From Amoebophrya sp. A120 (taxonomy: Eukaryota > Protista > Dinoflagellata), in the NCBI GenBank assembly GCA_905178155.1, contig CAJINV010000001.1:16395166-16459165 (forward strand): a stretch of DNA of 64,000 nt, given 5' to 3'. The notes under the pieces are model-generated. The model was not told where the DNA came from, ran no database searches, and was given only the letters and a program-made list of their open reading frames with translations. Position 1 is the stretch's first letter. The number at the start of each line of letters is the position of its first letter. A program made the position numbers and the translations under genes. This document shows positions 5,832 to 51,700 of the stretch, in pieces.

Positions 5832-7521
5832 ATGCCGTCCTTTCCGTGTGATGCCGTCGCGTCTGCTTGCGCGTCAGTGAAGGCAATATTAGACAAGATT
5901 CAGGAGATCGAGGTACTTACTAGAGTTTCATGTGCGGAATGAATGACGTAGGCATGCTGACGAGTTCTGTGCTTGTTCAACCAAATGTCTTGTTCGCCCA
6001 CTCATGCTCATTCATGATCCACGCAACGTGGCACATCTTTTTTTTCCACGAATTTGGCAGGCCGTCGCGTGGTCCAAGGAGAAGCTGTACGGGCTGTACA
6101 TCCTGCTGATTGGATCCATCGAAAGCATCATCGGGTAGAGTAGTGTTTGCGAATTAGTTCTATGCCTCATGTTGCATCATCCGTGTCGACAACACCGTGC
6201 AACCTAAAGACGGTAATGTGGCAGTCCCAAGTTCAGTTGTACACGAAACTGCCCAACTAGGTCCATTTCCCCGTTCGTCGTGCAGCCGATGTTGTGGGTG
6301 AAAGACCAGCTGATTGGCGTGTGCATGACCCTGACTACCTTCTGCTACACGGTGTTTGGCAAGATCGATGACTCCCTCGTGACGCCGATCGTTATGGCGG
6401 GAACCAACACGGGTTATCAAAGTGAAAAATCCCCCATCCCCATATCGGAAACGGAAGATGCGCGAACTTGTGATGCTGTATTTGAGTACACAAATCGACT
6501 TGTATTGCTAGAAGGCCAAGAGACGAAGCTGCGGCCTAAATTGCAGGCAATCTGTCATGATGTTTCCCACTTCCATTTGCCTCCTGTCATCCTGGAGCTG
6601 CAAGGCCTTCCCACGCCAACCAGCACTGCAGTCCGCATCTTTTCCCTTCTAGCATGACAAAGCTGATTTGTGGCCACAAATCTGCATCACAGATTTCCGT
6701 TTTGATATGGGGAGGGGGCATTTTTCATGGTAATGCGGGTGTGTGCTTGTACACCACCGCCAAGGACATTACCTACACGCAGTACGCAATGGTCAAGGAC
6801 GGGCTCGTCATGCCAGTGGTCTCCACCGTCAACGCAGCTGTGGTAAGTTGTTTTTCGTCGTGTGCACAAAATTGGTCCACCACAGCCATTGTTTGGTTTC
6901 TACTACCTCCAAGATGCAGCTCGGCGCAGCTTGGCTTCTGTCTCGTTCTTTTCTCAGCGACAGCGTCATGGTAAACAAAAACCGCGATACTTTATTTCCC
7001 CAGGTCTCCCCAGCGTACAGTGCGGCGTCTTGCGTCGCAAAGGGTGCCACGTCAAAAGCCATCAACGTCAGTGCCTGGGTGGATTCCAAGCTCAGTCTGG
7101 TCAGCATGATGGCAGCCGTTGTGGAGAAGTCCAAGAAGTTGGATGAGTGTGTCACCTCCGGTACACGAGATAGACCTTTTTGTTTTTTATGTTGCACTTG
7201 CATACAAGCGCACGTGCGCGACAGGCCCTTCATTTTTTTCTAGACGTTCTTAGCATCGTGAAGTAGAAAGTCAGCAATAAGAACCGCATCGCAGGTGCGA
7301 TTGAGAAGAAGTTGGTCCGCCCGGCGCTGGCAACTGCGACCTCCTTGGATTCCAAGTACCTCGGCGGCAGCACGCAGGACCTGATTAGCTCCACGGTGGT
7401 GCAGTTTCAGGAGGCGAAGGGCGTCCCGGTCGTCCCGGCGGTCACGGTGAAGCCAGTTGCCAACAAAACCGCCGCCGGCGCGCCTACCATCTCGCGTCCG
7501 CAGGTCGTGCGCCAGCACTAA
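5832..7521 (+). CDS. hypothetical protein with hydrophobic/amphipathic helices, ~6 exons
   Basis: GC3-rich exons ~5832-5911, 6061-6134, 6261-6414, 6741-6842, 7004-7160, 7295-7521 join in frame. One junction is the TIR element 6415-6735. Confidence 0.65.
6415..6735. mobile_element. introner-like TIR element in exon (TSD CGGGT)
   Basis: CGGGT at 6410-6414 and 6736-6740. Imperfect TIR (TGAAAAATCCCCCATCCCATATC..AAACGGAA / TTCCGTTTTGATATGGGGAGGGGGCATTTTTCA). Internal GCATGACAA. Removal with one TSD gives in-frame NTG|VCLY. Confidence 0.8.
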
Positions 7522-9728
7522 ACTATTGCATCTTCCCTGAAAATTGACTTGTGTCAAAATGTCAATCTGCAATAAACCGTTTGTAGCTAGAGTAAAATTT
7601 GTGTTTTTGACAGGACCCCCGCTTCACGATAGGTTTGTTCAGACGAGGCAAAGCAATGAATCTATCCATCCTCGGATGTTGGATCGATCTAAATTTTTTT
7701 CCGAGCAGGGTACAAGATGACCGGTCGGAGGACCACTCTATCTTGCGAAATACAGTAAGCTTGTGCAGTGGCGGTGCAGGAGATGTAGTCACTGTAATTT
7801 GATGAGAGCCCTTTTTGTCTACTGCAAACATGGGCGGCACATCTGTGAGCTGTCGCGTGTTTGTGCTGGACAATCTAACGCCTCGAGCTCAACTGGTGGG
7901 GTGTCCAGTATCCACCTCCGCGCCCGACAGCTGCATCCTCCGTGAAACGATGGTGTAGCAGGGGGGCGAGGGGAAGTCGTAAAGTACAATTTTCCTTGTG
8001 CCCAATTTGCTCTACACAAACATAGGTGAGACATGGAACGTACACTACATTTGCTTTCGATAGAAACTATTTGGCTTCATACAAAACTAACAGAGCATGG
8101 TATTGCTTCCTGACACGCAATCTTCAAATTTGACAAAAACCTAAATTAGAATCTGAACAATGCAGTACTCCTAACCTTGATACGCAAAAAAATCTCAAAT
8201 AGGTGTTGTGCGATGCGTTATGTAAAAAGCTTGCATGATGCACTTGTACGAATTTCGTCGCTGCGGAGCAAGAAGCGGCCGAGAAATCGTTATGATATCG
8301 TATCTGTCGTTGTCCTAGAAGTACCGATGCTTATGAATAGCCTTCTCGCTGCGCTTCTTGGCTTTTTTTTTTTCGATACGGTTCGCGCTATCCGGGGGAC
8401 CCTGACCACCCATAATGTACTTACTAGGCGAGGATCTCGATGATCCCCTGAACAGTTTTGCAGAGGAACGCGCGTGAGCTGGTGTGGCGTACGTGTCCCT
8501 CAACAAGCTACACTGCTAGTTCAGGCTATCTGGCTACCCGATAATTTTCCTCTACGCGCAGGCATTTTATTCGCAGGAATGGAAACTATTTCGAAGATCC
8601 ATCGCAATTGCACTTCAAGCGCCAAAGTGGTCAAAGCGTCAGTTGTAGTGGAAGCTTCGCACGGTTACCATCTCCTCACGAAGCGAAATCTGTCGCGCCA
8701 TGCTCATGATGATGTTTACGTCTGCTATGCTCAATGTTATCATATTTTTTTTACCGAAAAGAACAACTTCAATCACAATTTTCCGGCCAAAATAAATCAC
8801 ATCTTCGAATTTCAACACAAAAAAAGCCTTTCCTCCACTCGATTTTGAACAGAGCCTCAGCCTGCTTATCTGAGCAGACTAGCGCTGAAAGTATACTAGC
8901 AAACAAGTTTCGATTTTTTGCTATGATGATTTTCCCTAAAGAATGTTTGCATTATGCCTACAAAAGTTAGTTTCGGAGGCAGCAATGTTGTGCAAAATAT
9001 CGGTCGACCGTAGAATGCAGATATGCAACATTCGCCGGGTCTGCAGGGGATGATTCTGCATGTTGGTCTTGCTTCATTCTTGCGAAGATGGGAGCTGAGT
9101 CGTGACCCTTTATTGGTAGCATTGTACAGTGCACGATACTGAAGAATGAAGACGAGAAATATAAAAATGTACGTGAAAATTTTCCTCTTCGTGCCAGTGA
9201 GGCGATGATGCTCGGTGGTCGGCACGAATTACCGTTGCACGCCAACTACACCGGTCTACGTTATGATTGGACTTTGACAGTAACGTTTCAAATAAGAAGC
9301 TGCGATTTTTTGTCCTGGTTCTGCGGGTTTGCGCTCCCAAGTCGCGGGTCTTCCGCCTTGAGACCAAGATATGTTCACAGTGGTGGTTGAAGGAAAAAGG
9401 TGTAGCTTCTCTTGTCAGCATGCGATTAGAAACCAAACGAGCAGCCCGTTTTCGTGGACTCGCATCACTTTGGAGGAGTGCTTGAGATAGCTGAGCGACA
9501 AGCAAAAAGCATTAAATTTTCCGTTCTCGAACGCTTCTTACAATTCACTAGAATATTTGTGTTGAACAAAGACATAAAGACGCGCGAACATCACCCGATG
9601 TGGCAGCGCCGATCTTCTTGAGACTTCAACATGGAGTAATGGCTAGGCGTGCATAGCTCTAAAGAACGGCTCCAGCTTCGCCCGAAATTCGATTTTGCGC
9701 GGAGCAACGAATACATTTCACACCCAAA

Positions 9729-12715
9729 ATGAAGACGTCGTCGTCTTTGCTCCCCGAAGACTCCTCTGCATCTAGCGACGTGAAAAAGCTTCCTTCCCGC
9801 CTCAGCGTCGACATGAATGCCGCCAGGAGAGGCACCACCAAGCCTATGGCTGTCGGTCCATCGCCCTCCACGTCGTCGTCGTCCTCCTCTTCTCGGGATC
9901 TGTGCAACGGCCTCGAAGCAATGCGGGCACGAATACGGAATTTGCACCAGCAATACGGAGATTCTCTGGAGGAGGTGGAGGCAAATCTGTCGCGCATGGA
10001 TTTTGCAGATGTGGAGTCGAGTCGCAGTCGCGAGCAGGGGAACCCCGGCACAGTTGCAGAAAAGGCCAACTTTTCGGCCGGCGGGTCTAGCGGAAGAGTA
10101 GCGGGTCTTGCAAATGACAAGCCTTTGGCAGCCACGCAGGCGGAGGTGGACAGGATGAACTCCCTTATCCGCGCCAGTCGCGAGAGCGATAGGAGCAGCC
10201 GAAGTGGCAACAAACCTGTAAGCGATTCTGGACACACGGATGTCGTACCGCGCAGCAGGGGCACTGGTGTCGGGCATATTACACCAGGTGCGGTCAGCGC
10301 GCAGCGGTCGTCCGGCGAGCTGCGTTTGAGTAATCAGAAGAGTGCCAGTTTTGCCAAGAGCAACGGGGACCTCCGCTCGCAAAACAACGCAGCGTCCAAC
10401 GGCGTTACTTCGCTGTTATCCTACCTGGACACGGTAGACCAAGAGAACCAGCAGGACCTGGCGGCAATCGACCGTCGCAGCGATTTGCGGCAGAGCAGCG
10501 CGGCAGAGGTTGTTGCAGACCGTCTTTCGCTTCTGGAAATCGAACTGACCGATAAGCGGGAAACGGTACAGAGACTCAGACAGGCCCTGGACAGGCAAAA
10601 AAAGGACGCTGCCGAACGGGATCTCCAACTGCAAAAGGTACATCTAATCTGCATGTTCTTTACTCCTCACCTCGTCGACGGACACCTGGCATGGAAATCG
10701 CAAAGTCACTTTCCCTTACTAGAGCACTTTTCGTGAATTTGGAATAAGAGTGTTTTTTTACCAACAGGCCTCTGCAGATCAGCTCGCGGCGCAAAAGAAG
10801 GAATGCGATGAGCAGGTGGAGCGGCAGTTGGTGCTATGCGACCGCTTGCTGAAGGAGAAAACGGACTTGACAAAGCGCATTTCGAGCTTGGCCGAGGAAC
10901 TCAAAACTGCAGAACGGAAATTTTCGAAAAAGGTTGAAGAGCTGCAGGAGGGTATGATTGTGTGTTTCGCTCTTCCTTCACCGGTATAGATTTCCTGATA
11001 GTGTCGATCGAAGTTAGCTCCGTGCGTCAGTGGCGAACTAGCACACAAAATCAAACAATGTCAAAGTATTCAAAAATCCTAAATTAACAGATCACGCGAA
11101 GGATGTCGCACGTCAAAAGCAGAACTGGGCAACGAGTGAGCGTTTGCGGCGGGAGAACTGGGAAAAGGAAAAGACAAAAGAGATCAAGGAGATCACTATC
11201 AAGGGATTGGAGCCCGAAATCGAGCGGATATTGAGCGCTCACAGGACGGAAAAGAAGCGCATCGAAGAGCAGCACCAAGTGGAAAAAACTGAATTGCAGT
11301 CCGATTTGGAACGAAGGTAGGTAGTGGAACCCAACAAGATTGTCCTCCTACTGTTTTTCTTTTTTACAATCTCTACAACGTGAGTATTGAGTACCACATC
11401 ATCTGCCGCAAACGGGTTTCCCACGCACAGAAAACATGATCAGAAGAGAACAAGAATCGATATTCAGGTATGAGCGTCGATTGCAGGAAGCTCGCGAAGC
11501 ATCGCGGCGGGAAACGGACCGGTTACTGGAAGCGGAGCAAGACCGGCAGCGGGCCAAACTGGACGAGAAGACGGGGCAAATCAGCAAGACGCACCAGGAC
11601 GAGCGCAAGCGGCACCTGGAAGACGTGCGGCAGATGCAGGAAACGTGCGACAAGCGGGTAAACGAGCTCCAGCTGCATTGGGAGAAGCAGCTGCGCGAGC
11701 TGCAACAGAAGTTCCGTTCGGAGCTGGACGCAAAAGACGCGGACCTGCAACAGCTCAAGCAGAAAGCGCGACAGGAATTCGAACAGGAAGAGAAGGAATT
11801 GCGAGAAAAGCTGCGGCTCGACGGTGAGGCGACGCGAACCAAATTAGAGGAGCAGTTCACCGCACGGGTAAAACAAGCCGAAGTGGACATTCGAGCGGAG
11901 GTACAAAAAAAGCGAGACTGGGAAATCGAGCAATTGACAACGAGGCTCGGAAAGGAGCAGCTGGACCTCGAGCGGCAGTTCGCCACGAAACTAGAGACGG
12001 AGAAGACCGTATCGAGGGAGAAAAATGTGGCGTGGTCATGCTGGAACTACTAATTATTCGACGAGCGCAAATAATATTTACGACCAAACAATCTTGATCA
12101 ATCTATCACCAACATCGGTAGGCGTAGTCTACCTTTGTTCCTGTTTCATTCACGCAACAATATTTTTCTCATGCATAGTCCGCATTGTGGGACAAGATGG
12201 CCGCGGAGCACGGCGCACTGTCCGCAAAGTTGACGGCCGCCATGGAGGCAACCGCCAGCGCGGAGGTCCGACTGCTGGAGGCAGAGAAGACGCGGAACGA
12301 CGCCGACACGAGCAAGGACTTGGTCACGACCGAGCTGGTGGATGTCAAGGACCGACTGGCGCACGCGCTGCGCAAGGCGGACCTGGCGGAGAGCCAGAAA
12401 CAGGAAGTAAACAAGCAGCAGCAAATGCAGGAAGTGCAGCATGACCGCGAGGTTCAACTCTTGACCGAGCAGTTGAAGTCGTCCCAAGCCGCTCTCGCGG
12501 ACGCGGAGCAGGCCAAAGCTCTCGGCGAGAAGGCGAGCGCCGAGCGCGAGGCCGAAAGCGCACGCGTGCTGGAGGAACGGGTCCGCAGCACGCTGGCGAA
12601 AAAGGACGGCACCATCGAAGACCTGAAGCGCCGACTCAGCTCGAAGGACAACCAAATCAAGGAATGCGAATTCATGTTGCAGAAACAACGCGAGGAGCTC
12701 CTTTCTGGGTTGTGA
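9729..12715 (+). CDS. CEP131: centrosomal protein CEP131 / AZI1-like coiled-coil protein
   Basis: LLSYLD motif and the exon ~11091-11316 reading KEIKEITIKGLEPEIERILSAH, which matches the CEP131 core. Long coiled coil. Introns near 10638, 10952, 11317 and 12009. Confidence 0.8.
12010..12177. mobile_element. decayed introner-like TIR element forming a CEP131 intron
   Basis: TAT...ATA termini; flanks GACCG/GTCCG (4/5). IR GAGAAAAAT..TGGCGTG / CACGCAACAATATTTTTCTC. Internal GTCATGCTG. Confidence 0.65.
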
Positions 12716-19688: not shown

Positions 19689-22600
19689 ATGATGCCGTCG
19701 TCTTCCTCGTCATCGTCCTCAGCCCTCATGAAGCGGCCACGCCCCCAATTCAATGACATATTTTCCGACCCATTCTTCAACGACGAGACTGCGGGCGCAC
19801 CCAAGCGACACAAAACCATCGGGGAACAGCTTCGCCGCCCCGAGCGGTGGATTTTCCCGGGAAGAAGGGACCCGCGCGTGGAAACCGAAAAGGGCAGCCA
19901 CGACTTCGAAGCAGCCCGGGATGGTTATCATGCGAGTGATGCCAAGGGAGAAGTGCTCGCGCGCTACGGTTTCAACCTCGCGCTACGATGCCACCCGCAT
20001 CCCTGCGCCATCTCGGAGACCCGCACCACGCACGTGGCGATTCCGGAGGACTTCGAGCTGCGTGTCCCTCGGGAATTGATGGAGCGCGGGGTTTTGTCGT
20101 CCACACAGATCGAGACCATCACCCTAGCGGCGCTACGGACGGCGGACGTAAAGGCGCCCGCGAGCACTGCTGTCGTGCTGTCCAACGGGAGCGACGCGGG
20201 CAATAAAGTTATGGTTTGTGTGATGAGGAGGCAACACGGGCCTAGCGAAGCGGCCCGGGGTGCCGAGGAGGGAACACAAAGCGGATTTTTATATAAATAG
20301 TATGCTCTGCCTCCGTCTGTCGCCACGGTCCCGGGAAGACCTTAAACTCGAGGCCATTCAGTTCACATTTTCAAGCTTTCATCTAGGCCTGCTGCCGTTT
20401 CGACACTCTTCACTTCAATCTTTCAGCTCGTCCAGCCTGGCTGGCCAACAATGTACCGCCCGTTTTCATGGCTGGCCAATGTACTGGCTGGTATCGGTTT
20501 CTGCCCGTTTTTCAGGGTATCAGTTTCTGCCCGTTTCAGGGTATCAGCTCCTGCCCGTTTCAGGGTGTCAGTTTCTGCCCGTTTCAGGGTATCAGTTTGT
20601 TTCTGCCCGTTGCAGGGCATCATTTTGTTTCTGCCCGTTATCAGGGTATCAGTTTCTGCCCGTTTCCGGGTATCAGTTTCTGCCCGTTTCAGGGTGTCAG
20701 TTTCTGCCCGTTTCAGGGTATCAGTTTGTTTCTGCCCGTTGCAGGGCATCAGCTTGTTTCTGCCCGTTTCAGGGTGTGAGTTTCTACCCGTTTCGGGGTA
20801 TCAGTTTCTGCCCGTTTCAGGGTGTCAGTTCCTGCCCGTTTCAGGGTATCAGTTTGCTTTTGCCCGTTGCAGGGCATCAGTATGTTTCTACCCGTTTCAG
20901 GGTATGAGTTTTCTACCCTTTTCAGGGCATTAGTTTGTTTTTGCCCGTTTCAGGGTATCAGTTTCATCTGCCCTTTTCAGGGTATAGACTTCTGCCTGCT
21001 TCAGGGTTATCACTCAGTTTCCGCTCGTCTCAGGGACCGACCTCTGCCCATTTCAGGGTATTGGCTTGTGCTCGCGTGAGGATATCTTTTTCGGCCCGTT
21101 TCTGGGGCCAGTTTTCTGCCCGAGTCAGGGTATCGTATCGGGCTTCTGTTCATCTTGTCGGGCTTGGGGAGCGCCTTCTGTTCATCTTGTCGGGCTTGCA
21201 GTAGCCGCACACAAATGCGCTACGTCTTTCAATGCCTTCCGAAGCCCCTTGCGATTGCTGACGCTGGCCTGCTGCTAGTCTGTAAATGTATCAATGGTCA
21301 AACTACCCCCCCTGCGGGCGTCTGAACTCGAGCCATTGGCAAGGCTCTACGGTACGAGTCTGCTTGCGTCTGCTCACCAGGCAGTATGAAAGACGCCTGG
21401 CGGATTCTCTTCACGTTCGATACTCGTCACGACGCCGGCCTCTGTGTGGGTCCTGTGTTTGCTGCTGCGGCACAAATACGGCGACCACCATTGGATGGTG
21501 TAGTGACAGCTCGTTCGCATTCCTCGTCTGCGCCGGCCTCAACATTTTCCACGCGGATCGTGTTGCGCAGCGAAGGTTTTTGCAGCATAGTGCAACACCT
21601 GCGCACTACATTTTGTTTCGTGTGGCCTGGGCTGTTCGATACTTTTGCCCTGAGGTTTTGAAGTTTCTTGCTTCGTGCCTGGTTCTATTGCCGTTGGTGG
21701 GCCTCGCTGCGGGCGCTTGCATCTAGTTGATGACCTTCGCGGAAATTGGGTATCTGCACCGTCTTGCCTGTTGATGTAGCGCCTGTGCGCCGTCTCTTGG
21801 AGGCCTGTTACCGACAGCATTCTTGTTGCTGTTCGTTCTATCACATTTCCTTTGGGTGTGTTTTTTTTTTTCAAGTTGTTAATGCTAGCATTCGCACACC
21901 CGTACCTGCGCTGACGCTGACCGAGGGCTTTATACACGTAGCCCGCGTCTGGTCCTGAAAAGCCCCTGTGGGTATTTCTGTCTCTCCCGTCGCCTGTGTG
22001 CAGATCATCAAATGGTCTTTCCTACCTTCATCTAGTGTCACACGGCTGCGGATGCGCTTGCCGCTTACCTGCTCCAGAGCCTGTTTCTCTTGTAAATTCT
22101 TTGGAAAGTTCCGTAGTGCGCGACGGGCCCTCAAATCTATTCCTCTTTTCTTTTTCTTTGTGCTTCTGTTGCTCCGTATTAAAGCGAAGTGATGCTTCTT
22201 TACTGCTATACATGTCGCAACCCGCGCTGTGGGCGCTCTTCGCTTTCATACTGCGCAACCTCGCACCAACGGGCCTCTCTTGCTCCGCCATCGGGGTTGT
22301 CAGCTTTTTCGGTCTGGCGACCCGCGTTCGCTAGCTCGGCCCGTTGTTGTCTCCGACAGATTATGTTATAAAGGCGCCCGCGAGCACTGCTGTCGTGCTG
22401 TCCAACGGGAGCGACGCGGGCAATAAACAAGTGGGTAAGCACAAGGGGCCGCTACAGATACAGCAAAAGTTACCTGCGACCGACACCCCGCGAGACAAAA
22501 ACTACACCAAAGGCTTTTTAATTGGCGAGGGCACGGGCTGCGGTAAAGGCCGCATGATTGTCGGAGTGATGCTGCACTACTGGAATCACGGACACCGGAG

Positions 22601-36968: not shown

Positions 36969-37513
36969 ATGGCAGCTGTGGCTGAAGCGGCACCCTCACC
37001 CGCACCGGACAAGCGCTTCGAGGTGAAGTCATGGAATGCTGTGGCTTTGTGGGCGTGGGACATTCTGGTCGACAACTGTGCAATTTGCCGAAATAACCTG
37101 ATGGAGCCCTCGATTGAGTACCAGGCGAATCCAGCGCTAGCCGGGCCGGACCATGCTGGTCTGCAGATCGCGTTCGGGTGCTGCGGGCACGTTTTTCATT
37201 TGGATTGCATTCAGCGATGGCTCAAGACGCGAAATGTCTATCACATGGGAGATCATCGTGGGCGAAATCAAAATTTTCATGAAATGAACTAGTTCGCACC
37301 AGGTCATGACGTTTTTGCAAAATGAAGAGAGATCGAAGGATCTTTCTTGTTTCTATGCATTATTCAGCACACTGCACCCTCCAACTCTGATTTGGCTCAC
37401 GATTTTCTTCCGATAGTGCCTGTCCGTTGTGCAACCGAGACTGGGAGTTTTCCAAGATAGAGTCGATCGGTCGGGGCAACTTCGACCGCCTGGGTTTCCA
37501 CGCGCAGTCATAA
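36969..37513 (+). CDS. RBX1: RING-box protein 1 (SCF E3 ligase subunit)
   Basis: [28 protein letters not shown]...[21 protein letters not shown]|[11 protein letters not shown]. Confidence 0.95.
37239..37415. mobile_element. introner-like TIR element forming the only RBX1 intron
   Basis: TATC...GATA termini. IR ATCGTGGGCGAAATCA / TGATTTGGCTCACGAT. Flanks ATGTC/GTGCC (3/5). Confidence 0.8.
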
Positions 37514-38168: not shown

Positions 38169-41100
38169 ATGGCGATGGAGCTTGAGCACGCGATCGGGTG
38201 CAATGTGGGTTTCACGGAAATCGCGCATTGCCACCCGAACGGCTCCCACTACGTCTACGCGATCGGCGCCCAGGTCGTTGCCAGCAGCATCGAAGATCAC
38301 CACGACCAAAAGTTCTTCCACGGCCACGATGATTTCGTGACGTGTGTAGCGGTAAGCCACGATGGGCGCATGATTGCGAGCGGGCAACAGGGGAAAAGCG
38401 CCGATGTGCTCCTATGGGATTTCCGCACCCCAGGGGACCAGCCACTGTTCCGCTTCCAGGAGCACGACTATGGAATTACGTACTTCGAGTTTTCATGACA
38501 TTTTTGTTGAGCATTTGCATTCCTCAGTGACGAGTAGGAATAAAAGCGCAAGACATCTTACCCAAACTCCATCACAGGCGAGTTGCATTTTCCCACGACG
38601 ACACGCTCCTCCTGTCTATGGGGTTTCGTGATGACGGGCGCCTTTTCGCATGGGACACACATACCGGGCTGATTGTCGCATGGGTGTCGCTGGAAACCAA
38701 CCCCCTCGTTTGTACAGTTTGCTTTAAGCTTTCCTGTCGATCAAATTTTTTTTGATAGTCTTGTATAGGCATAGGAGATTGCGTCAATTGAAAACCGATC
38801 CTCACACACTGATTTTCGCACCGCTTTTTCTGAGCGGGCGCAATTATTCTGAAACAGCTTGCCTGCTGCAGGGGCAGTTCGTACGAGACATCAAGCGCAG
38901 GGACACGCCGTTGTACCAGTTTGCGTCATGCGGAGCGCAAATTGTCACTGTCTGGAACGTCGACACCGGCAACGGGGCCTTCCACCAAAATAACGTGCAT
39001 GCAGCAGGTGCGATACTTCAACTTCTTCGTACTTGGAGGAGGCGGCAGAAACGAAATGAAGTCGCTTTCATATGGAAGGATCGATGTCATGCTGCGAAAG
39101 ATTCTCCACAACTTGAAACGCCAGTAAGTTTGCATTGATTTTCAAAATTTTTCAGATAAGACGCGGCGCGAATACACGGCCCTGACGTTCTCGTCAGACT
39201 TCGAGTACTTGTACGCGGGCACGACGACGGGCGACATTGCGTGCATTTTGATGAAAAGCAGGGTGATCCAGAAGTACATTACGGCCGTTTCAAACGTGTC
39301 CGCAATCCGCTCCCTGGCCACGATCACCACACCCGATAGCGCGAGCGAGACTCTTTTGGTCGGCGGAACCAGTGGTGCGCTCACGCTCTTCACCGGTGCA
39401 ACGTGGAGCGACCTAATCGATACGGATCAGATAAGACTGGACTCAGCTGTTTCATCCGTCCGTGCCTGTGCAAGCACATCATCTAGTAGCGCGGCCGCAG
39501 ACGACGCTGTGAGCAGAGCGGACGAGGCCCTCGTGACCACCGTGACTGGGAGCATCTTCCGTGTTATCCTGAGTAAAAACGTACCCACACCAGAGTCAGG
39601 ATGGGGAATCTGCTAGACAAATCAGCCAGCTTTGGTTGTTTGGCATGACAAGTTTGTCCGCGTAGTGTAGTGCTGTTTGAGCTAGTTTGGCAGCATTACA
39701 GATTGGAGCATGACAAATTTCAAAACCGCACTAGAAAATGCTTCTCATGGGGCTCCGCATGAGAAACATTTTAAGCATGCAGAGACAGATGCATGACAAC
39801 TACGGTGTGGGTACGTTTTTACTCAGGATACGTGTGAAGACGAAGTCGCTAGCCTTCTCTACCTACGCGCATAACCCCGCCGGGGCGCTGACCCACGTCA
39901 CTTTTCCGTTCTCGAGTTGCGATAGGATACTAACGTGTTGCGCGGACGGCAACGTCATTTTATGGGACCTGAACGACTACACGGCACAAGTGAGATGCAC
40001 GGAGAGGTAAGCTAGCTGCTCCTTCGCACTAGGTGTGAAAAAGATCTTCTTTTGCCGACACAACTCGAAAGCTAAGTCAAAGCTGTGCTTGGTGTCCGTT
40101 GAGCCACTGTGTTATCAGAGAATGTGTTGCATGTTAGGCTTGAGTTTATTTTTTCCAGGAAATATAGATGACAAAAATGCGAAAACAGGGCCTCTCCGGT
40201 GCCGACGTGTGGTGTTGGGTCTGCGGACATCATTGTTGCTGGCTACGAAGACGGCAAAATAAAAGGATTCGATGCTGTGCAGGGAGCGGGGCTCTGGAAG
40301 GTGCCAGTTTGTTGCTGATAAGCGTTTCTAGTCGAAGTTTGCAAAAGCGAACCTGTTCTACATATTCCTAGATTATTGCAACCATATCTTTATCTTTTCA
40401 GTCCTTAGAGTTGCTTTTCGTAAACAGATCGACAACACGCACAAGAAGGGTGTTTCCACCTTAGCTCTCGCACGGAACATGCGGTTCGTGGTCTCTGGAG
40501 GAGTGGAAGGCGATCTGCGGGTGTGGCTATCGCACAGAAGATTACCAGGCTGGATGCCCACGTTGTTTGCGAAATGCTGAGAGTGAAAGCAAATTCAACA
40601 CAAAAAAATTCTCTATCGCGCGATCTCATAATTTATTGCATAGCATGGTACGTATGGATTTCTTCTCGTATCTATTGGCTTATACCTGAGAAATGAAATC
40701 ACGCATGTGTAATCTTCAGTATGATAGTAGGAAACCAAAACCAAGGAGATGATCACGCACATGAAGGAGCACGTTGGGCGCATCAATCAAACGGAGCTTT
40801 TTACCAACGACCAATACGCCATATCATGCAGGTGCCATCGTCTGTTTGCTTTCTTGACTTCGTAATGAATCCTTAATTTTCCTTTGCACAACCCGTGTTT
40901 TTCTTGCGCCGGCGAGGCAACGGTAATCAACGCCGACACCTGAAAAAAGAAAATCCACTCAACAGCCGTGATCGTTGTCTGCTCACCTGGGATCTTCGCG
41001 CCGAGCGCCGGCTGACCATGCACCGCGAGAAGCATGGAGGACTAAACGGGTTGGTCATGGCATCCGACCAAACCACGGTGGTGACGGCCGGAATGGAAAA

Positions 41101-42678
41101 AACCATGACATTCTGGGATCTGAGGCAACAGGACGCCTCCTACTACATCGACGTTCCGGACGAGGAGCTTCTGGCACTAGACATGAGCCACAACGAAAAA
41201 TATTTGGTCACGGGAGGTAGAAGATTTCTTGACCTTTCACGTCGAATATCTCTCGGTGCAGAAGCACTTGTTCGCAGCAATGCAAATGATGCTGAAGATG
41301 CAGTACGAGGATAGAGAAGGCCGCAATCACAATGCATATCAGAATTTTACCAAATCCAAAGGTACTGGCCATACAGTGAAGCTTTGGGATCTGCGCAACG
41401 TCCAGCAGGGTCCGTTGAGCGTCGGCAGCGGACACAGCCGCGATATTGTCAGCGTGAAATTCGCGGAGGACGACAAGCAAGCGATTTCCGCCGCGAAAGA
41501 CCATTCGATCCTCGTACTAAGTGGAAAAATGTCTGCAGCAAAAAAAATCAAAATTTTTGGTAGTGCAGTTTGTGCCCTTCTCTTCTCGCCCGGACTGCAG
41601 CGCGCTGGTGCGTGCCGTGGCCTCCATGCTGGGGAACTTGACCGAGGTGCTGTACTCCATTCCTGCTGCGTCGTTTGGTCGAAGCTCCCGCGCGAGCTTG
41701 AAGGCCCCCTAGTAGTCAGCCCAAGCGTTCGTCCTCATCCTTCTCGTTCTGGAAGTAAGTAGTTCCTTTGCCCATGCTCCTGTCCAGCATGCCGCAACCC
41801 TCAGCCAGGTATTTGGGCGTGAAGCCCCTCCCGCCAAAAGTGGCAATTTGTAATGCGCGTTTCGCATTACAAATGGCCATCTTTTGTGACCCGTCTTGGG
41901 CTCGCTCTCCGGGCCGGGTCACAAATCTGAGCCCCTGCATCAGCAGAATTGGGTGCTGTGAAGGTTCAGATTTGTGATGCCAAAAGAGGCTCCGCCAAAA
42001 ACGTCTGCACCTCGACTATGAGGTCCCCAAGTGGAGGCGCAGACGTTTTTGGCGAGGGGGGGGGAAAGTGAGGCTGATAGCCCGCGTTTGTCTGCGCCGC
42101 CAAAAACGTCTGCACCTCCGAAATTGGCCTCCAGATGAGGTGTCTTCGGACACCTCTTCGGAGTCCTCCCGAGTCGCGGACCTTCGGGGCGACAAATTGC
42201 GGCCGCCCTTTTCGCAGGGCCCCGACCTGTATCGGGCTGAATTTGCAGGCAAAAGCCTGCGATTTGAGCTCATCCCCGAGTCGGCCTCCTCCGAGGCCGC
42301 GAGGTTTGAACCAAAAGCGAGCCTCTTGGTCAGCAAATTCAACCCATTCTCAAACAAGACATGTACGCGGTAAATCGTCAGGAATCAGGAGGGGGTGTGG
42401 GAACTTGAAGAACTACAACTGCGAACCCGGGTGGACGACGCCCACCGATACCGACGTACCTAGTCCCCCGGTGGCTGAGTTGTCTCCTCTGCTTCGTCCG
42501 CCGAGGCCTTGCCGGAATACCTGGCCTACCCATTTCCTTGATTTTGTTTCATTGTGAAAAAAAATAAACATACAAGCAGGCGCCCGAAAAGGTAGGATAC
42601 AAAAATTTTGATTTTTTTAGCTGCAGACATTTTTCAGTTTAGTACCTCGTGTGGAACATTTACGACAAGTCAGCGTGA
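38169..42678 (+). CDS. cilia/flagella WD40 protein, CFAP52 (WDR16)-like
   Basis: MELEHAIG start, FFHGHDDFVTCVAVSHDGRMIASGQ, YLYAGTTTGD, multiple WD repeats, C-terminal DHSILVWNIY. About 11 exons, three of the junctions being TIR elements. Confidence 0.8.
39565..39830. mobile_element. introner-like TIR element in exon (TSD CGTGT)
   Basis: Perfect 27-bp TIR TATCCTGAGTAAAAACGTACCCACACC. CGTGT at 39560-39564 and 39831-39835. Several GCATGACAA motifs. Removal restores FRVKTK. Confidence 0.95.
40528..40726. mobile_element. introner-like TIR element in a WD motif
   Basis: TATCGCACAGAAGATTAC / GTAATCTTCAGTATGATA. Flanks GTGGC/GTAGG are each one change from GTGGG. Removal restores LRVWETK. Confidence 0.8.
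41515..42644. mobile_element. 1.13-kb non-autonomous TIR element in the last coding region of the WD40 gene (TSD CCTCG)
   Basis: ~44-bp TIR TACTAAGTGGAAAAATGTCTGCAGCAAAAAAAATCAAAATTTT / AAAATTTTGATTTTTTTAGCTGCAGACATTTTTCAGTTTAGTA. CCTCG at 41510-41514 and 42645-42649. Internal CGCCAAAAACGTCTGCACCTC repeats. Confidence 0.92.
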
Positions 42679-42749
42679 AATTCGCGGAGGACGACAAGCA
42701 AGCGATTTCCGCCGCGAAAGACCATTCCATCCTTGTTTGGAACATTTAC

Positions 42750-43682
42750 TTCAAAAAAGAAAATTTAAGAGCAGGACGATAATTCAGTTTTTTGGGTGTG
42801 TGTCCACAGCGAGCCAGCTAGCCAAAAAAACGGGCGAGAACCCGCACCATACGCGACCAACATGCCGCGAGTCGTGCCTCCTCGCAAAGTCGCGATCGAC
42901 CGACGCACAGCTCACAGTGAGGGAGGGGGGGGCGCCCATTCACCGCTTGAAGGGGCGCAAGGGGCTCCCGGTAGAGTAAGTCGCGTCGCAGTATCGTTGG
43001 CCCAAATGTGGCGAGCGTCACAGCCGGCAACTTTGATCGCGCGGCCTGCAGGTCTCGGCTCAGGACCAGGAGTCTCCTTTCACCCTTTGCCGCGCAAAGG
43101 GTGAAAAGGGACTGTGGATAGCAAGGCACGACGCAGTACCTTGAGCCAAAAGTGCTCAAGGTCTGCGTCCGCGACTTCGATCGAGTGGTCCACAAGTCTC
43201 AACTCCGGGCTTTTTCTCCCCTTTGCCTCGCGAAGGGTGAAAAGGGACTCAGGATAGGAAGTCACGACGCAGTACCTTGAGCCAAAAGCGCTCAAGGTCC
43301 ACGTGTGTGACATTGGTCGATTGGCACACAAGTCTCAATTAGGAGCCTCCTTGCTTTCTTTTCCCCGCGAAGGGTGAAAAGGGACTCCAGGTAGCAAGTA
43401 GCGGCGTAGTACCTTGAGCCAATTGTGCTACGCTGCGCGACCCGCATCGTTGTGCGCTTGATCCACAAGTCTCAATTAAGTACTTTCGCAAGAAATCGTC
43501 TGCCTTCTCCAGCATTCCGTGGTGAGTAAAGTTCTACAGCTAGTATTTTGAATCAGGTGAACTAGATCTGTAGAACGTTAAACACCATGGCGCGCTGCGC
43601 CTGGCGCTTTTGCAGCGCCATCACTTGCAATAAAATCCTCGCGGTTGGCGTGGGCGCCGATCGCGATGATTTTCTGGTGACC
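42750..43682. mobile_element. 933-bp insertion carrying SL-like tandem units, flanked by a 76-bp duplication of the WD40 gene 3' end
   Basis: Identical 76-bp repeat at 42674-42749 and 43683-43758. Three ~136-bp internal units. No clear TIR. Confidence 0.75.
43104..43475 (-). ncRNA. three tandem spliced-leader (DinoSL)-like RNA gene units
   Basis: Minus-strand leaders ACCTTGAGCACTTTTGGCTCAAG, ACCTTGAGCGCTTTTGGCTCAAG and AGCGTAGCACAATTGGCTCAAG, each followed by a 32-nt segment starting GTAC and then TTTT. Compare DinoSL DCCGTAGCCATTTTGGCTCAAG. Expression not shown. Confidence 0.65.
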
Positions 43683-44641
43683 CGTGAAATTCGCGGAGGA
43701 CGACAAGCAAGCGATTTCCGCCGCGAAAGACCATTCCATCCTTGTTTGGAACATTTACGACACGTAAAGTCCGAGGCGGTCGGAATCTGGATGGCGCTCG
43801 CAGTCTCGCAACGATAATCTGTAGCTCGAAAGAGTCTTCTCAGTCTTCTTTTTCAATTCAAAAGCACGTAGTGGGTAGCTCAACAACAAAGTTTTAATCA
43901 GATCAAACTAGTATACGAAGAGATTCTTGTACTTGTAGTGGATATTTACGTAGCACATTATTACCTGGCTCGATGTAGAAGGACCAGGCGAGGACTTTCG
44001 CGTTCAGCTAGAAATGCCTGGACATCATTTTCATTTTGTTACTAGAGCCTTGCACAAGGAGCAGACTGTCTTCCTGGACCGATTCTCAAGTGCTCATCGA
44101 ATAGATGAAGAAGGATGTCAGTTGTTTTTTGCACTTGCAGTTGCACGACAGACGAAAACACAATGCGCGGGAAAAGATGAGACTGCAGCACCACACAAAT
44201 GTCCAACTTTTCGATTGCTATCGATCTAGTTGCGAGCCGGTCGCTGCAGGAAGGTGGTCTGGTGTTTTGATTTCTTTGCTTTTGTACAGCATGCAAGGTT
44301 CGAGCTCGCAGAGCCAGAAGCAGCGTAGCAGGTAGAGGATCACTTGGTCTTCCTGTTTCCGACGGCTTTAAAGCTGCCCGTACCATAGCAAAGCCTATTT
44401 AGCTACCCTGAGTAGAAGCAGAGTTTTTTTCCCAATTTGTTTTCATGAAAACAGAATTTTTGGTAAGTTGTTGCAGCGAAGGCACAAGAATAATGGTTCG
44501 CGGCGTGCGGTGAGCTACTTTTCATTTGCCAGACAGACCAACCGCGACATCATGCCGTCGGCGGGGGCCGTCGCTCTGCTTGGCGCACCTCGAGGCCCCA
44601 TTGCAGTACGTATCTGACTAGCCTTCTAGGTCGTCATCGCC

Positions 44642-47010: not shown

Positions 47011-47016
47011 AATAAG

Positions 47017-48042
47017 CTAACATAGAATCTCGACGTGACCGGGCCGGTCACGTCCGCCCGGCCGGCCGGGCGGCCGGACCGTGACCGGGGGTTGTCCCTG
47101 GTCAGCCCACATCCTGGAGCCAGTCGCTCGTGGGGGTAGGAGGTGACGGCACTGCACCTTGAGCCAAAGTTGTGCAGTGGTAGAATGCACCTCGCGGCAC
47201 CTTGGAGCCCTAGGCCTTAATATGTAACGCGCCCGAGCGCGAGCGCATGCCCATAGAGATGGACCTGCTGCAGCAAGTAGCAGTGACTTGAAGTCTGCAT
47301 CGAGGGCGCAACGCCGTGACTTGCTACCCTCCGTCCCTTTTTACCCCTCGCGCGCACGCAGAGTGAAAAGTTAGTGGGAGGATGGAGTCGCGGCACTGTG
47401 CCTTGAGCCAAAGTCGTCCAGTGGTACAGTGCGGCTCACTGAACCTCGGAGCCACGACTTCGTTCTGGGCTCAATTGCACAGCGCCGTGACTACAGGCCT
47501 CAATATGCACCTGAAAGCCACAGGTCTCAATATGCGACGCGTCGTCCGAGCTCAGGCGGATCCAAGTGGCAACGCCACGAAGTCTGCAGCGAGACACTTT
47601 TGGCCCAAGGTGCAACGCGGTGAATTGCTGGCCCCAGCTCCTTTTCTCCGTTTGCGCGCAAGCAGAGTCGGGGAAACGGACGGGGGCGCAGGAGTCGCAG
47701 CCACGTGCGTGGGGGTTGGGTTGGGGTGGGTGGGCGGGGTGTTTCGAGCGGTTGCCAGCGGTGTCTCGCTGCTGTAGCTACTGCTACTGCATAAATAAGT
47801 CCGCCCCCGCAATGCTAGCTACTTTGCAGGAGCGTGAGGCCCAGCCAGGCTTTCGATTGTAGGCACTGCGGGTGGAGCTGGAGCCGGAGCGGCTCTGCTC
47901 CGCGCACCACATAAAACTAACATCTGGCGCAGCCCGCGCCCGGATAGCAGCCGCGGGACATAGTCTACCCCCGGTCACGGTCCGGCCGGCCGGCCGGCCG
48001 GGTGGACGTGACCTCCCCGGTCACGTCGAGATTCTCTGTTAG
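47017..48042. mobile_element. ~1.03-kb TIR element with SL-like units, flanked by a 68-bp duplication of the calcineurin 3' end
   Basis: ~76-bp TIRs at 47017-47092 and 47967-48042 (CTAACATAGAATCTCGACGTGACCGGG... / ...CCGGTCACGTCGAGATTCTCTGTTAG). Identical 68-bp repeat at 46943-47010 and 48050-48117, including the stop codon. Confidence 0.92.
47126..47645. ncRNA. three diverged SL-like units (two on the minus strand, one on the plus strand)
   Basis: Minus: CTTTGGCTCAAG|GTGC ending at 47158 and CTTTGGCTCAAG|GCAC ending at 47402. Plus: AGCGAGACACTTTTGGCCCAAG|GTGC at 47588-47609. The latter two keep the 32-nt spacing to TTTT. Confidence 0.55.
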
Positions 48043-48773: not shown

Positions 48774-51700
48774 ATGCGTGGCAGCGCTGATGGGTGTCGG
48801 CATTTCGCTGTGAGTGGTGGTCCACACGGCAACGGGGGTGTGCAGCGGCGGCCATGGTCCGCACGGGGGCTTGTCTTGCTCGACAGCAGTGTGGTCGGAC
48901 GCTTGCACGGAGAGGCAGACCACGTGGCGCAACCCTCCGTCCCCTCCGGGACGTCGCGTGAAGAGCCTATGTCCCCGCACCATCCGAGCATACTTGTGCC
49001 ACCACCTGCATCGGACCCTGCTACTGGTAGCTTCGCCGTCCACCCACCCGACCTCCAAGCTATGGAGCTAGACAAGACGGGCACGCCGTCTGCAATCGGA
49101 AATGGAGATAGCACCACTCCAAGGACGGGCCTGTATTTTCACGGACGAAGGAAAACCGAGGCCGGGTTCCGCCTGACGCCGCCACCGGTCGTGGAGAAGC
49201 CGATGGCCTTCCATGGGGTGCTGCCGAGCGCATCCCGCGCTGCCAACTCGCCGCCCCTTGCTGCTCCTGCCAGTGAAAAGCGACCCGAGGCCGAGCACAA
49301 CGGAACAACGCACTCAGCAGGGAGTATGCTAGAGCGGGACCAAGGAGCCAGCAATGCCTACACGACGCAGGACCGCAGCGTCGCTGCCACCGACTCGCGG
49401 GCCTCTTTGCGGAAGCGGGCGATTAATCCGTGCGTCTGCGAGAACGGCACGCCTTTTCCTTAGTATTCGCGCGAAAATGTGGGTCGAGATAAACGATGCA
49501 GCATCTAGCTGCGTTAATTTGAAAGTAGCTTTCCACAAAAATAGCATACAGCATTTTTCCATGCTGCGGACGAGTAAGACGCCACATCATTTTTTATGCC
49601 GCAGCAGATTTCTATCGATTCCTTTTTATTAGAGGTAGTAGAGCTACACTGACTGGTGATTTAGATTTTGGCCGCATACTCGATCCCTGATTTTCGTTCA
49701 ATATCATCGGTGCTTGGTGCAATGGTGTGCTACCAGACGTGACGCGGTGCGCTTCCTGCAACCAAGGCTGGCATCGTCAAGATGATTTCGACAAGCCGAA
49801 TTGGTTGTCCTGCCAGCCGAACACATGCGTTTGCGAAGACGGAGACGGTGCGAGCATCGGCACGCCCGCCACAGGATATTTTTGTCCCGAGAACGGCGGA
49901 AATTTCTGCTCCGCGTGCGTCACTGGGCGCCACGTGCATGACACCTTGGGCGAGAATTTTCTTAAATGCATTTGGAATGAATGCACCTGCAGCAACGGCG
50001 ACGCGGCCACGAAGGCAGCGTGTACAGCGCACGGACTCGAAAGGTGCGGAGTATGTCATACCGGGTACGTTCTGGACGACGGGCTCTGCGGGAAGGAAGG
50101 TTACAAGTGCAAGTGCGACACTGGAACGACCGTTCCGAAGGGGGACGCGCGGTGTCCCAGCAACGGCGCTGTTTATTGCACCGCCTGCAACAACGGCTAC
50201 TACCTGCAGGGGAACCAGTGCAAGCTCAACCACTGCACGTGCGACAACGGGGACGCAACGACCGGAACGGACTGTCCAAGCAACGGCGCCCAGCGGTGCA
50301 AAATTGACGAGTGCCACGCCGGGTACCATTTCCAAGGCGATTTTGCAGTAAAGGATCCTCCTTGGGGGACCTGCCAGCCGACAACCTGCACATGCCCACA
50401 CGGGACTGGGGCAACCGGCGCCGCGTGTGTGACGCATTTGTCGCTGCAGTGCGAAACGTGTAAAAAAGGCTACAGCCTGCAGGATAAATCCTGCGTTGCC
50501 AATATCTGCAAGTGCCCGAACGGGACGCCGTTTCCGCCTGGAAGCGAGTGGTGCGGCGAACATATCATGATGATGAAAGAAAAAAGTCGCTTGGAGCGAA
50601 TGCGCTCTTGCATTTTGCGGTTCGCATTGAACAGTAGTACTACCTAGTGCTGCAAATACATTACACCGAAATCCTAGTCAATGTCCGTTGTAGTTCTGTT
50701 TGCTGAAAACTGTCAAACTAAGGAATATTTGGTGAATATCTATGTGGAACCAGCAGAGACGAGAAGCAACAGTAGCAAAAACGAAATAGAGCACGAGCAC
50801 CAGCACGTGCATGAACAGCAGGTGACGACAGGCATTACGCTCTGCAATATCCCACGACGGAACCTCCTGCGAGTCTTGCGAGCAGGGGTGGCACCGGCAG
50901 GACAACCCCGACGAGCCCGGATGGCTTTCCTGCGTCGAGAATGTCTGCACTTGTGCAAATGGGCAAGTCGCGACCGGGCCATTCTGTTCTGAACACGATC
51001 CAGACAACCCCAAAACCGCGTGCAGCTCTTGTAATGATGGCCTGCACGTTCATGACGTCATGGGCCCAGATTTCCTTAAATGTGTGACGAACCAGTGCAC
51101 CTGTGCGCAGGGGACGCCGGCCGTGGGTACCGCCTGCCCCGTGCACCAGACCGAAAAGTGTGTCGAGCCATGCAACGGCGGCTACGTATTCGAAACTGTG
51201 AGTGGGCACGGCATGTGCAATCCCGAGGTTGGTAAGCAGTGTGTCTGCGGGAACGGAGTCCCCGTGGCCAAGGGTAGCTCGCTGTGTAAAAACGAGGGCG
51301 ATGTCGTTTGCGCGTCGTGCTATCGCGGCTTCCGAGGTTTGACCTGCGAAGAGAATGTGTGCCCCTGCGCGCACGGGACGCCTTACAAGGGTAAGGACTG
51401 CAAAGACGGCGATCCCCTGGTGCTGTGTTGCGAGACAGAGGGGATCACGAGGTGTAAATCCTGCGAGAGCGGTTACCGCATTCAAGATGACTTCAACAAG
51501 CCCGACGTGTTCAGTTGCCAGCCCATGCAGTGCGAGTGCGAAAACGGTTTTGGCGCAAGTGGCCCACCGGCGTGCCTGTCGGAGGGTGATCATGCGTGCA
51601 GCATGTGCAACATCGGCTTCGAGAAGAGCTCAGAAACTTGTCATGCTGAGCCAGCATCTGTAGCCTCATCATGAGACGCCACCCAGCATCACAAGTTTCC

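What the first reader, a model, noticed from the sequence alone, without database searches (positions are those of the whole stretch)
6410..49708. Family of TA...TA TIR introners with 5-bp TSD; a single splice rule explains all members
Seen: eight elements of 168-1130 bp (6415, 12010, 31052, 37239, 39565, 40528, 41515, 49464) sit inside coding exons of six genes. They start TAT/TAC, mostly end ATA/GTA, have mutually different TIRs and 5-bp TSDs ranging from perfect to eroded, and several share internal GCATGACAA boxes. Removing the element plus 5 bp restores frame each time. Inference: cutting after the 4th TSD base fits all eight and gives intron starts GTAT, GTAC, CTAT or TTAT. The TIR thus supplies positions +2 to +4 of the GTAT/GTAC donor common in this window's ordinary introns, while the 3' end lies 4 nt past the stem regardless of AG. 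This suggests stem-guided acceptor choice. Known: IR/DR-bounded non-canonical introners are reported in Amoebophrya. The positional rule is my inference.
Basis: partly seen in the sequence, partly recalled or inferred. Interest (0 to 1): 0.8.

Follow-up and report, generated by a model that had tools for sequence, protein, structure and literature searches.

The report
Amoebophrya hairpin introns, one cut rule
These are the already published hairpin-ended mobile introns of the marine parasite Amoebophrya A120; every junction here that can be placed fits a cut one base before and four bases after the element, even where a normal AG intron end lies closer, which likely means a loosened spliceosome measures the exit point from the hairpin.

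Summary
All eight elements are real. The genome is Amoebophrya sp. A120, and the elements are its published introners: TAT ends, short direct repeats, and 5-bp TSD with TA/TA termini are all in print. Transcript-like contigs or annotated proteins lack each element plus 5 nt; DNA-like contigs show no such joint for the two tested. The four copies with drifted TSDs share only one register, the predicted cut after the 4th TSD base. At 12010 an in-frame GT-AG intron is ignored; at 37239 an AG next to the hairpin is ignored. A ninth element (42992-43816) is cut 4 nt past its right end, but its donor lies 212 nt upstream of its stem, so the two cuts are separable. A simulated sliding aligner reproduces published splice-site spectra (n=11,578, r=0.99), so their 'diversity' is likely an annotation effect that neither supports nor refutes the rule. 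Best reading: a relaxed spliceosome reads N-UA as donor and places the acceptor by position (0.55). Five informative junctions, one RNA study, no lariat data. The rule was not found in print; this scan noted it before in other windows of this genome.

The parts
6415..6735 (+). Introner, perfect 5-bp TSD, ends ATG; young high-copy family; intron 6414-6739 under the rule
   Evidence: Joint 6409>6736, both=5, in X1, X3, X4, none in X5; X5 summed depth up to 79,376 against 42.5 in flanks; another copy's flank joins at 6415
12010..12177 (+). Introner, TSD 4/5; intron 12009-12181 (GT..CC); in-frame GT-AG alternative 12009-12178 not seen
   Evidence: Joint 12006>12180 skips 173, both=3, in X1, X3, X4; X5 depth flat at 42.5
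31052..31286 (+). Introner, perfect TSD, 39-nt perfect TIR, three GCATGACAA boxes; host gene has a 2-oxoacid dehydrogenase E2 domain at its end
   Evidence: X4 contig piece resumes at 31286 (table 8); register not resolvable
37239..37415 (+). Introner in the RING-H2 domain of RBX1, TSD 3/5; intron 37238-37419 (CT..GC); AG directly after the element not used
   Evidence: X4 piece resumes at 37420 (table 8); annotated protein P0003 has N-V at the junction; Pfam zf-rbx1 split at position 49/55
39565..39830 (+). Introner in WD40 gene, perfect TSD, three GCATGACAA boxes
   Evidence: Joint 39559>39831, both=5
40528..40726 (+). Introner in WD40 gene, TSD 3/5; intron 40527-40730 (CT..AG)
   Evidence: Joint 40525>40730, both=1, i.e. 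k=3 or 4
41515..42644 (+). 1130-bp introner in last WD40 exon, perfect TSD, 46-nt TIR, no Pfam hit in 5 ORFs tested
   Evidence: Joint 41509>42645, both=6; element-free copies of the site at 42669-42749 and 43683-43758
49464..49703 (+). Old introner in a Cys-rich gene, TSD 0/5; intron 49463-49707 (GT..AT)
   Evidence: Annotated protein P0001 reads P-Y-G, given by k=4 only; joint not among the rows shown
42992..43816 (+).
   Evidence: Joint 42778>43821, both=0, one X4 contig at depth 87.3; 8-bp terminal stem, pair probability 0.75-0.98
42779..42783 (+). Off-stem non-GT donor (A-TAAT) joined to the ninth element's acceptor, 212 nt upstream of the element's own G-TATC end
   Evidence: own donor predicted to be buried by 4 extra base pairs, P 0.91-0.97
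47018..48041 (+). Candidate tenth element (TAAC..GTTA, 76-nt IR) after the stop of a calcineurin-like phosphatase gene; predicted joint 47016>48046
   Evidence: X4 depth 1 in bin 47300-47963 against 35 and 98 beside it; joint not seen
20210..22370 (+). Candidate element (TATG..TATA) in a Strawberry-notch-like helicase gene, flanked by a 59-bp direct repeat; removal under the rule would leave an in-frame 19-aa duplication
   Evidence: not tested with RNA
51635..51726 (+). Right half of an introner (reverse GCATGACAA box, T5-N7-ATA end) at the head of a captured 1.3-kb gene fragment
   Evidence: sequence only

Best explanation
These non-autonomous TA...TA transposons with a 5-bp target duplication are missing from transcript-like sequence with one fixed register, one base before the left end and four bases after the right end, and they are likely removed by a relaxed U2-type spliceosome that would read N-UA as the donor and would place the acceptor by distance from the hairpin rather than at AG. 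Shown: removal of element + 5 nt; the common register at five informative 3' cuts and four informative 5' cuts; two bypassed AGs; one donor off the stem. Inferred: insertion by a DDE transposase in trans, with GCATGACAA as its binding site; spliceosomal chemistry; the stem as the ruler. Because 1 + 4 = 5, a new insertion into an exon is removed without a scar, and this would explain the spread of the class. My odds that the register is general for TA...TA elements of this genome are about 0.85; the confidence below is for the whole mechanism.
For: Register: k=2-5 (12010), k>=4 (37239), k=3-4 (40528), k=4 (49464), and +4 exactly at 43820 in a UTR with no frame constraint. With k drawn at random from 0-5, k=4 fits all four exonic copies in 16 of 1296 cases, about 3% after dropping outcomes with stops (my arithmetic); the 43820 cut adds about 1 in 6. 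AG bypass: at 12010 a GT-AG intron 3 nt shorter is in frame but absent from X1, X3, X4; at 37239 the AG at k=1 is not used. Donor likeness: T-A at +2/+3 matches 16 of 19 canonical donors; the off-stem donor at 42779 is also N-TA. Separable ends are typical of spliceosomes (own knowledge). A120 has nearly all spliceosomal proteins and U2/U4/U5/U6, with U1 snRNA not detected (PMC7789003 section 10). A25 IRs start TTA and its nine top classes start TT, which also reads N-TA (inference, open to the same aligner bias). End pairing persists in all eight, including old copies.
Against: Only five informative junctions. RNA evidence is contigs of one study, recorded only as 'RNA?', and may share data with the annotation behind P0001/P0003; contigs drop rare forms, so minor AG use is not excluded. 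The off-stem donor rests on one contig of one run, with 14 joints hidden. In-register terminal pairs are predicted at about 0 for 6415 and 12010 and 0.18 for 49464. Canonical acceptors do not share the 3' signal (TA at -6/-5 in 3 of 19, counted). Model spliceosomes need G+1 and AG for the second step (own knowledge). Published annotated acceptors are 27% AG and 20% AC, far above a pure k=4 model; I explain this by aligner sliding, using a scoring rule recalled from BLAT, and a machine that truly slides would give the same counts. No lariat, branch point or factor was observed.
Confidence: 0.55

Rival explanations
1. A second, spliceosome-independent route like that proposed for Euglena nonconventional introns cuts at fixed spacers (1 and 4 nt) from a paired motif and ligates the exons.
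For: Euglena code N3-CDG / CH'G-N5-6 with paired ends and circular products (PMC12501133 abstract and Discussion). No canonical base is needed at +1, -1 or -2 here, and an in-frame GT-AG is ignored at 12010. U1 snRNA not detected in A120.
Against: The ninth element's acceptor is joined to a donor 212 nt outside its stem, which a cut-both-sides-of-the-hairpin enzyme should not do. Element starts match the canonical donor at +2 to +4.
Confidence: 0.2
2. The spliceosome reads both ends as linear sequence (N-UA donor; U-run, then R-U-A four bases before the cut, perhaps with that A as a branch point at fixed distance), and the hairpin is only a by-product of the TIRs.
For: Poor in-register pairing at 6415, 12010, 49464 despite exact removal; donor separable from stem; fixed branch-to-acceptor distances exist in some protists (recalled, no call).
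Against: 6415 has G, not A, at -5; the ninth element has a strong stem but no U-run; a TA motif is too short to pick one site in 1 kb; end pairing exceeds that of all 19 canonical introns even in old copies.
Confidence: 0.18
3. There is no fixed register: a tolerant machine slides within the TSD to the most canonical-looking ends, and the agreement on k=4 is chance.
For: Published spectra (n=11,578) fit a sliding model (total variation 0.066) far better than fixed k=4 (0.375); the original paper calls the sites variable.
Against: At 37239 sliding to k=1 would gain an AG and is not seen; at 12010 GT-AG is not used; five of five informative 3' cuts agree. The published positions come from BLAT alignments.
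Confidence: 0.05
4. The joints are not splicing: reverse-transcriptase template switching across hairpins with direct repeats, or element-free DNA alleles.
For: Strong hairpins flanked by direct repeats favour template switching (recalled); X1, X3, X4 are RNA only by guess.
Against: Retention gives stops in all eight, including RBX1; joints at 43820 (both=0) and 49464 have no repeat; X5 is flat at 42.5 across 12010 and shows none of these joints; the same contigs skip GT-AG introns.
Confidence: 0.02

Closest known systems
Introner elements / non-canonical introns of Amoebophrya sp. A120 (Farhat et al. 2021, PMC7789003; read: abstract, sections 10, 11, 12, 16, 25, supplement legends S19-S25 and part 3 of 5; figures not seen)
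   Same: Same organism; IR starting TAT + 7 nt + A-run; 3-5-nt direct repeats at the boundaries; hairpin; RNA-supported non-GT-AG ends; no transposase. [quoted passage not shown]
   Different: The paper calls the sites variable relative to the hairpin and the border unknown. No fixed 1/4 register, AG bypass, off-stem donor or sliding explanation in the text I read; Figs 3 and S19-S23 might show more.
A120 introner families in Gozashti et al. 2025 (PMC12130899; read: passages, all 58 A120 rows of supplementary file 8; file 14 not searched)
   Same: TIR DNA elements; family 38 is noted '5-bp TSD, TA/TA Termini'; many families 'co-opt both' sites.
   Different: Mechanism labels and TSD lengths (2-6 bp for most) vary by family and rest on annotated ends. 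Some families differ (fam65: GG/CC termini, 8-9-bp TSD), so the rule need not cover all A120 introners.
Euglena nonconventional introns (Nomura et al. 2025, PMC12501133; read: abstract, passages, Discussion)
   Same: Likely MITE origin, paired ends, cuts at fixed spacers from the paired motif, code hidden by 'slidable' repeats. This is what the system works like.
   Different: Motif CDG/CH'G with spacers 3 and 5-6 and a purine exon start, against TA/TA with 1 and 4; unrelated lineage; hybrids rare there, while here an off-stem donor joins a stem acceptor.
Fritillaria borealis non-canonical introns (PMC13326754 abstract and passages; PMC11282704 passages)
   Same: TIR/TSD-derived introns handled by a U2 spliceosome that tolerates non-GT/AG ends.
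   Different: Preferred ends AG-AC/AG-AT; duplicated divergent U2AF; U1 conserved; the terms hairpin, stem and inverted repeat do not occur in PMC13326754.
IS3EU/GingerRoot DNA transposons (PMC10045372, PMC12730594; passages)
   Same: TA..TA (TAY..RTA) termini, integrase-like DDE transposase, as hinted for A120 family 38.
   Different: TSD usually 6 bp, here 5; no transposase in this window, so only a lead for the autonomous partner.

Membership tests
Amoebophrya A120 introner elements | Lies in the A120 genome | tested here: met
   Two window genes match proteins named Amoebophrya sp. A120 at 100%
Amoebophrya A120 introner elements | Removed from transcripts at non-GT-AG ends | tested here: met
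   8 of 8 (5 listed joints, 2 contig piece starts, 1 annotated protein only); none is GT-AG at k=4
Amoebophrya A120 introner elements | 8-20-nt inverted repeats joining the ends | tested here: met
   eroded at 12010, 37239, 49464
Amoebophrya A120 introner elements | 3-5-nt direct repeat at the boundaries | tested here: met
   At least 3 of 5 bases in 7 of 8; 0 of 5 at 49464
Amoebophrya A120 introner elements | IR reads TAT + 7 nt + at least three A | tested here: met
   Exact in 4 of 8 (one with TAC), shifted 1-2 nt in 2, absent in 2
Amoebophrya A120 introner elements | Repeated in the genome | tested here: inconclusive
Amoebophrya A120 introner elements | No transposase gene | tested here: met
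   0 Pfam hits in the 14 ORFs tested, of 60 listed over four long elements; the seven short elements were not scanned
Canonical U2 introns | GT (GC) donor and AG acceptor | tested here: not met
   At k=4: GT in 3 of 8, AG in 1 of 8, both in 0 of 8
Canonical U2 introns | Lariat with branch adenosine | not testable with these tools
   Only contigs covered the genes; raw-read runs gave 2, 2 and 4 reads
Euglena nonconventional introns | N3-CDG at the 5' end, CH'G-N5-6 at the 3' end, purine exon start | tested here: not met
   Ends printed read N-TAY and mostly RTA-N4; next exon starts with a pyrimidine in 5 of 8
Euglena nonconventional introns | Fixed spacers between paired motif and cuts | tested here: met
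   1 and 4 nt in four exonic copies; 3' spacer only in the ninth
IS3EU/GingerRoot | TA..TA termini | tested here: met
   7 of 8 (definition)
IS3EU/GingerRoot | 6-bp TSD | tested here: not met
   Skips equal element + 5; intact TSDs are 5 bp
IS3EU/GingerRoot | IS3-like DDE transposase in the autonomous partner | not testable with these tools
   No genome held; none in the ORFs tested

The most novel reading that the evidence does not exclude
The 'unprecedented splice-site diversity' of Amoebophrya A120 hides one simple code, N-UA ... UA-N4: a spliceosome that has dropped the G+1 and AG requirements reads the donor by sequence and finds the acceptor by counting four bases from a transposon hairpin, so any 5-bp-TSD, TA-ended insertion becomes a scarless intron, and hairpin acceptors can be mixed with donors elsewhere.
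Probability: 0.45. Interest if true: 0.8.

Novelty: already known. Interest (0 to 1): 0.5.

Why it matters
About 65% of RNA-supported A120 introns are non-canonical and how they are removed has been open since 2021. The elements are known. A fixed register turns an unexplained scatter of splice sites into one testable code, gives exact ends for lariat or circle mapping and for minigenes, and would allow re-annotation of tens of thousands of introns. The bypassed GT-AG at 12010 and the off-stem donor at 42779 are natural mutants that separate the rival mechanisms. A spliceosome that finds its acceptor by a structural ruler with no AG would surprise splicing specialists. The label 'already known' is for the system; I did not find the rule in print.

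Tried and rejected
Raw RNA runs X8-X10 gave 2, 2 and 4 reads on 30700-50600 and say nothing; no RNA holder was listed on record. One metagenome scan with a 22-nt end of the 6415 element found 0 loci. Rfam found 0 matches in the window. The protein search for the Strawberry-notch-like gene returned only a 31% relative, so the 20210 insert is untested. I first took Table S4 (all nine top A120 classes start N-T) as support for the rule and dropped this: a sliding aligner gives the same classes. I first read the 42779-43820 joint as a stem-less intron; folding showed an element starting at 42992, so the '42780' rows do not describe an element, and the '20209' row is off by one base and is not used. 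Branch A at -5 shared with canonical introns: A in 9 of 19 there, but neighbouring positions are as A-rich, rejected as unspecific. Protein conservation alone cannot fix the RBX1 junction: 40 of 120 relatives carry the residues that k=0 would give. A 6-bp TSD does not fit. Supplement file 3 of PMC12130899 held nothing useful; one search returned only unrelated papers; bioRxiv 10.1101/2020.10.14.339549 does not mention Amoebophrya (term count only).
Full report
Identity. No genome is held for the window. Two window exons match proteins named Amoebophrya sp. A120 at 100%. Farhat et al. 2021 (PMC7789003) describe for this strain introns with 8-20-nt inverted repeats that start TAT, seven variable bases and an A-run, and 3-5-nt direct repeats. 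[quoted passage not shown] Gozashti et al. 2025 note '5-bp TSD, TA/TA Termini' for A120 family 38. The elements are therefore a published class in the same genome.

Anatomy. Four have perfect 5-bp TSDs; the others match 4, 3, 3 and 0 of 5. Their ends pair better (-20.9 to -53.4 kcal/mol) than those of 19 RNA-confirmed GT-AG introns (-3.3 to -15.2). GCATGACAA occurs 8 times against 0.75 expected, 7 times inside three elements, on both strands. Both orientations suggest a double-stranded DNA site such as a transposase box (inference). Unspliced reading hits a stop in all eight; removal of element + 5 nt leaves an open frame. Element-free copies of the 41515 site lie at 42669-42749 and 43683-43758 and carry one target copy.

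RNA test. I noted the predictions before laying reads. Raw-read runs X8-X10 gave almost no cover. Contig sets X1, X3 and X4 (one study, two samples, RNA by guess) skip GT-AG introns and the elements; X5 is flat across introns and shows none of these joints in 5400-13200. With k = left-TSD bases kept: 12010 gives k=2-5; 40528 gives k=3-4; for 37239 the contig resumes at 37420, so k is at least 4, and the annotated RBX1 agrees; for 49464 the annotated protein fits k=4 only. The only shared value is 4. Chance of k=4 fitting all four is 16 of 1296, about 3% once outcomes with stops are removed. The perfect-TSD copies (6415, 31052, 39565, 41515) are removed but cannot be placed. One search hid 14 joints; those of 31052, 37239 and 49464 were not shown. 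The annotated proteins were built from transcript alignments and may not be independent of these contigs.

AG is ignored. At 12010 the intron starts GT and an AG follows the hairpin at once. That GT-AG intron (170 nt) would keep the frame, yet all three contig sets skip 173 nt and end at CC. At 37239 an AG stands in the same place and the cut gives CT..GC. Contigs drop rare forms, so minor use of these AGs remains possible.

A ninth element. The joint 42778>43821 (both=0, depth 87.3, one X4 contig) was not predicted. Folding shows an 825-bp element at 42992-43816 with an 8-bp terminal stem. The 3' cut is exactly 4 nt past its right end, in a UTR with no frame constraint. The donor is not its own left end (G-TATC at 42991) but A-TAAT 212 nt upstream. 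Four extra base pairs are predicted to cover its own donor (P 0.91-0.97). Binned depth leaves almost no room for RNA between 42779 and 42990 (16.8 against about 16.6 expected from the exon alone; my arithmetic). So the 3' cut follows the element and the 5' cut can be any N-TA site. This favours a modular machine over hairpin excision, on one observation.

Published splice-site diversity. Annotated A120 families have 27% AG and 20% AC acceptors, which a fixed k=4 does not predict. The gene models rest on BLAT alignments. I simulated TA...TA insertions with perfect 5-bp TSDs in window coding DNA and let an aligner slide to the most canonical-looking ends (scoring recalled from BLAT). Against the three families with full spectra (fam1, fam2, fam18; n=11,578), the nine sliding variants gave total variation 0.066-0.204 (best r=0.989, chosen after the fact); fixed k=4 gave 0.375, fixed k=1 0.433, a half-and-half mix 0.169, random 0.373. 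An earlier run against 12 families with partial counts (n=9,626, those with n of 90 or more) agreed. Because TA ends give T at +2 for k=4 and A at -2 for k=1, sliding yields the NT-AN classes of Table S4. The counts thus support the TA/5-bp anatomy across thousands of introns but cannot test the register; only drifted copies can.

Mechanism. Shown: removal, register, AG bypass, separable donor. Inferred: a transposase in trans makes the 5-bp duplication; a relaxed U2 spliceosome takes N-UA as donor (T-A at +2/+3 in 16 of 19 canonical introns) and docks the acceptor four bases past the hairpin, so 1 + 4 bases restore the target (0.55). Against: in-register terminal pairs are not predicted for 6415 and 12010 and weakly for 49464; canonical acceptors lack the 3' signal; no lariat data. 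Rivals: a Euglena-like separate route (0.2; PMC12501133), linear 3' motif with the stem as by-product (0.18), sliding machine (0.05), artefact (0.02).

Novelty. The system is already known. I did not find the fixed register, AG bypass, off-stem donor or sliding explanation in searches or in passages of PMC11282704, PMC12005148, PMC11453091, PMC13326754 and PMC12621601. Figures of Farhat et al. and subscription papers such as Roy et al. 2023 were not seen and may bear on this. Earlier notes of this scan report the same 1/4 register in other windows of this genome; they are unreviewed, came after my tests, and are not counted as support. Interest 0.5: known elements, but a concrete code and two natural test cases for an open question.

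Noticed in passing
window 51578-53117: A 1.4-kb insert with 57-bp flanking direct repeats splits a Cys-rich gene. It holds the right half of an introner and a 1.3-kb, 95%-identical, intron-containing copy of 32190-33487; the main copy has no element at that site.
   Followed up: partly
window 20149-22427 and 46943-48117: Long TA-ended inserts sit between 59-bp and 68-bp perfect direct repeats of host sequence instead of 5-bp TSDs; the first would leave an in-frame 19-aa duplication in a Strawberry-notch-like helicase.
   Followed up: partly
window 41448-43758: The last WD40 exon occurs three times; the third copy lies inside the 42992-43816 element near its right end, like a captured host fragment. 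That element shares internal repeats with the 47018 element.
   Followed up: partly
window 59701-60045: Possible further element (TAC..GTG, flanks 4/5 alike), score 17.5, but terminal pairing probability 0.01; no RNA test.
   Followed up: partly
window 30191-35622: One long spliced gene ends in a 2-oxoacid dehydrogenase E2 domain after repeated lipoyl-like units and a long N-terminal part, possibly an E1-E2 fusion; only the E2 hit was obtained.
   Followed up: no
19 canonical introns in 5400-13200 and 30700-50600: Acceptors are often A-rich with no clear polypyrimidine tract, and GTAC is the commonest donor (8 of 19).
   Followed up: partly
window 20490-21134, 43070-43429, 62972-63449: Tandem arrays of 24, 136 and 75 bp; the first two lie inside long inserts, the last is coding.
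   Followed up: no
window 60553-60796 and 61779-62023: 245-bp duplication, 98% identical, in non-coding DNA.
   Followed up: no
window 7294-9306: Transcript contigs run about 1.8 kb past the stop of the gene at 5547-7518.
   Followed up: no
runs X8-X10: Three RNA runs with the same species label as X5 give almost no reads on well-covered genes, so they likely hold another strain or little parasite RNA.
   Followed up: no
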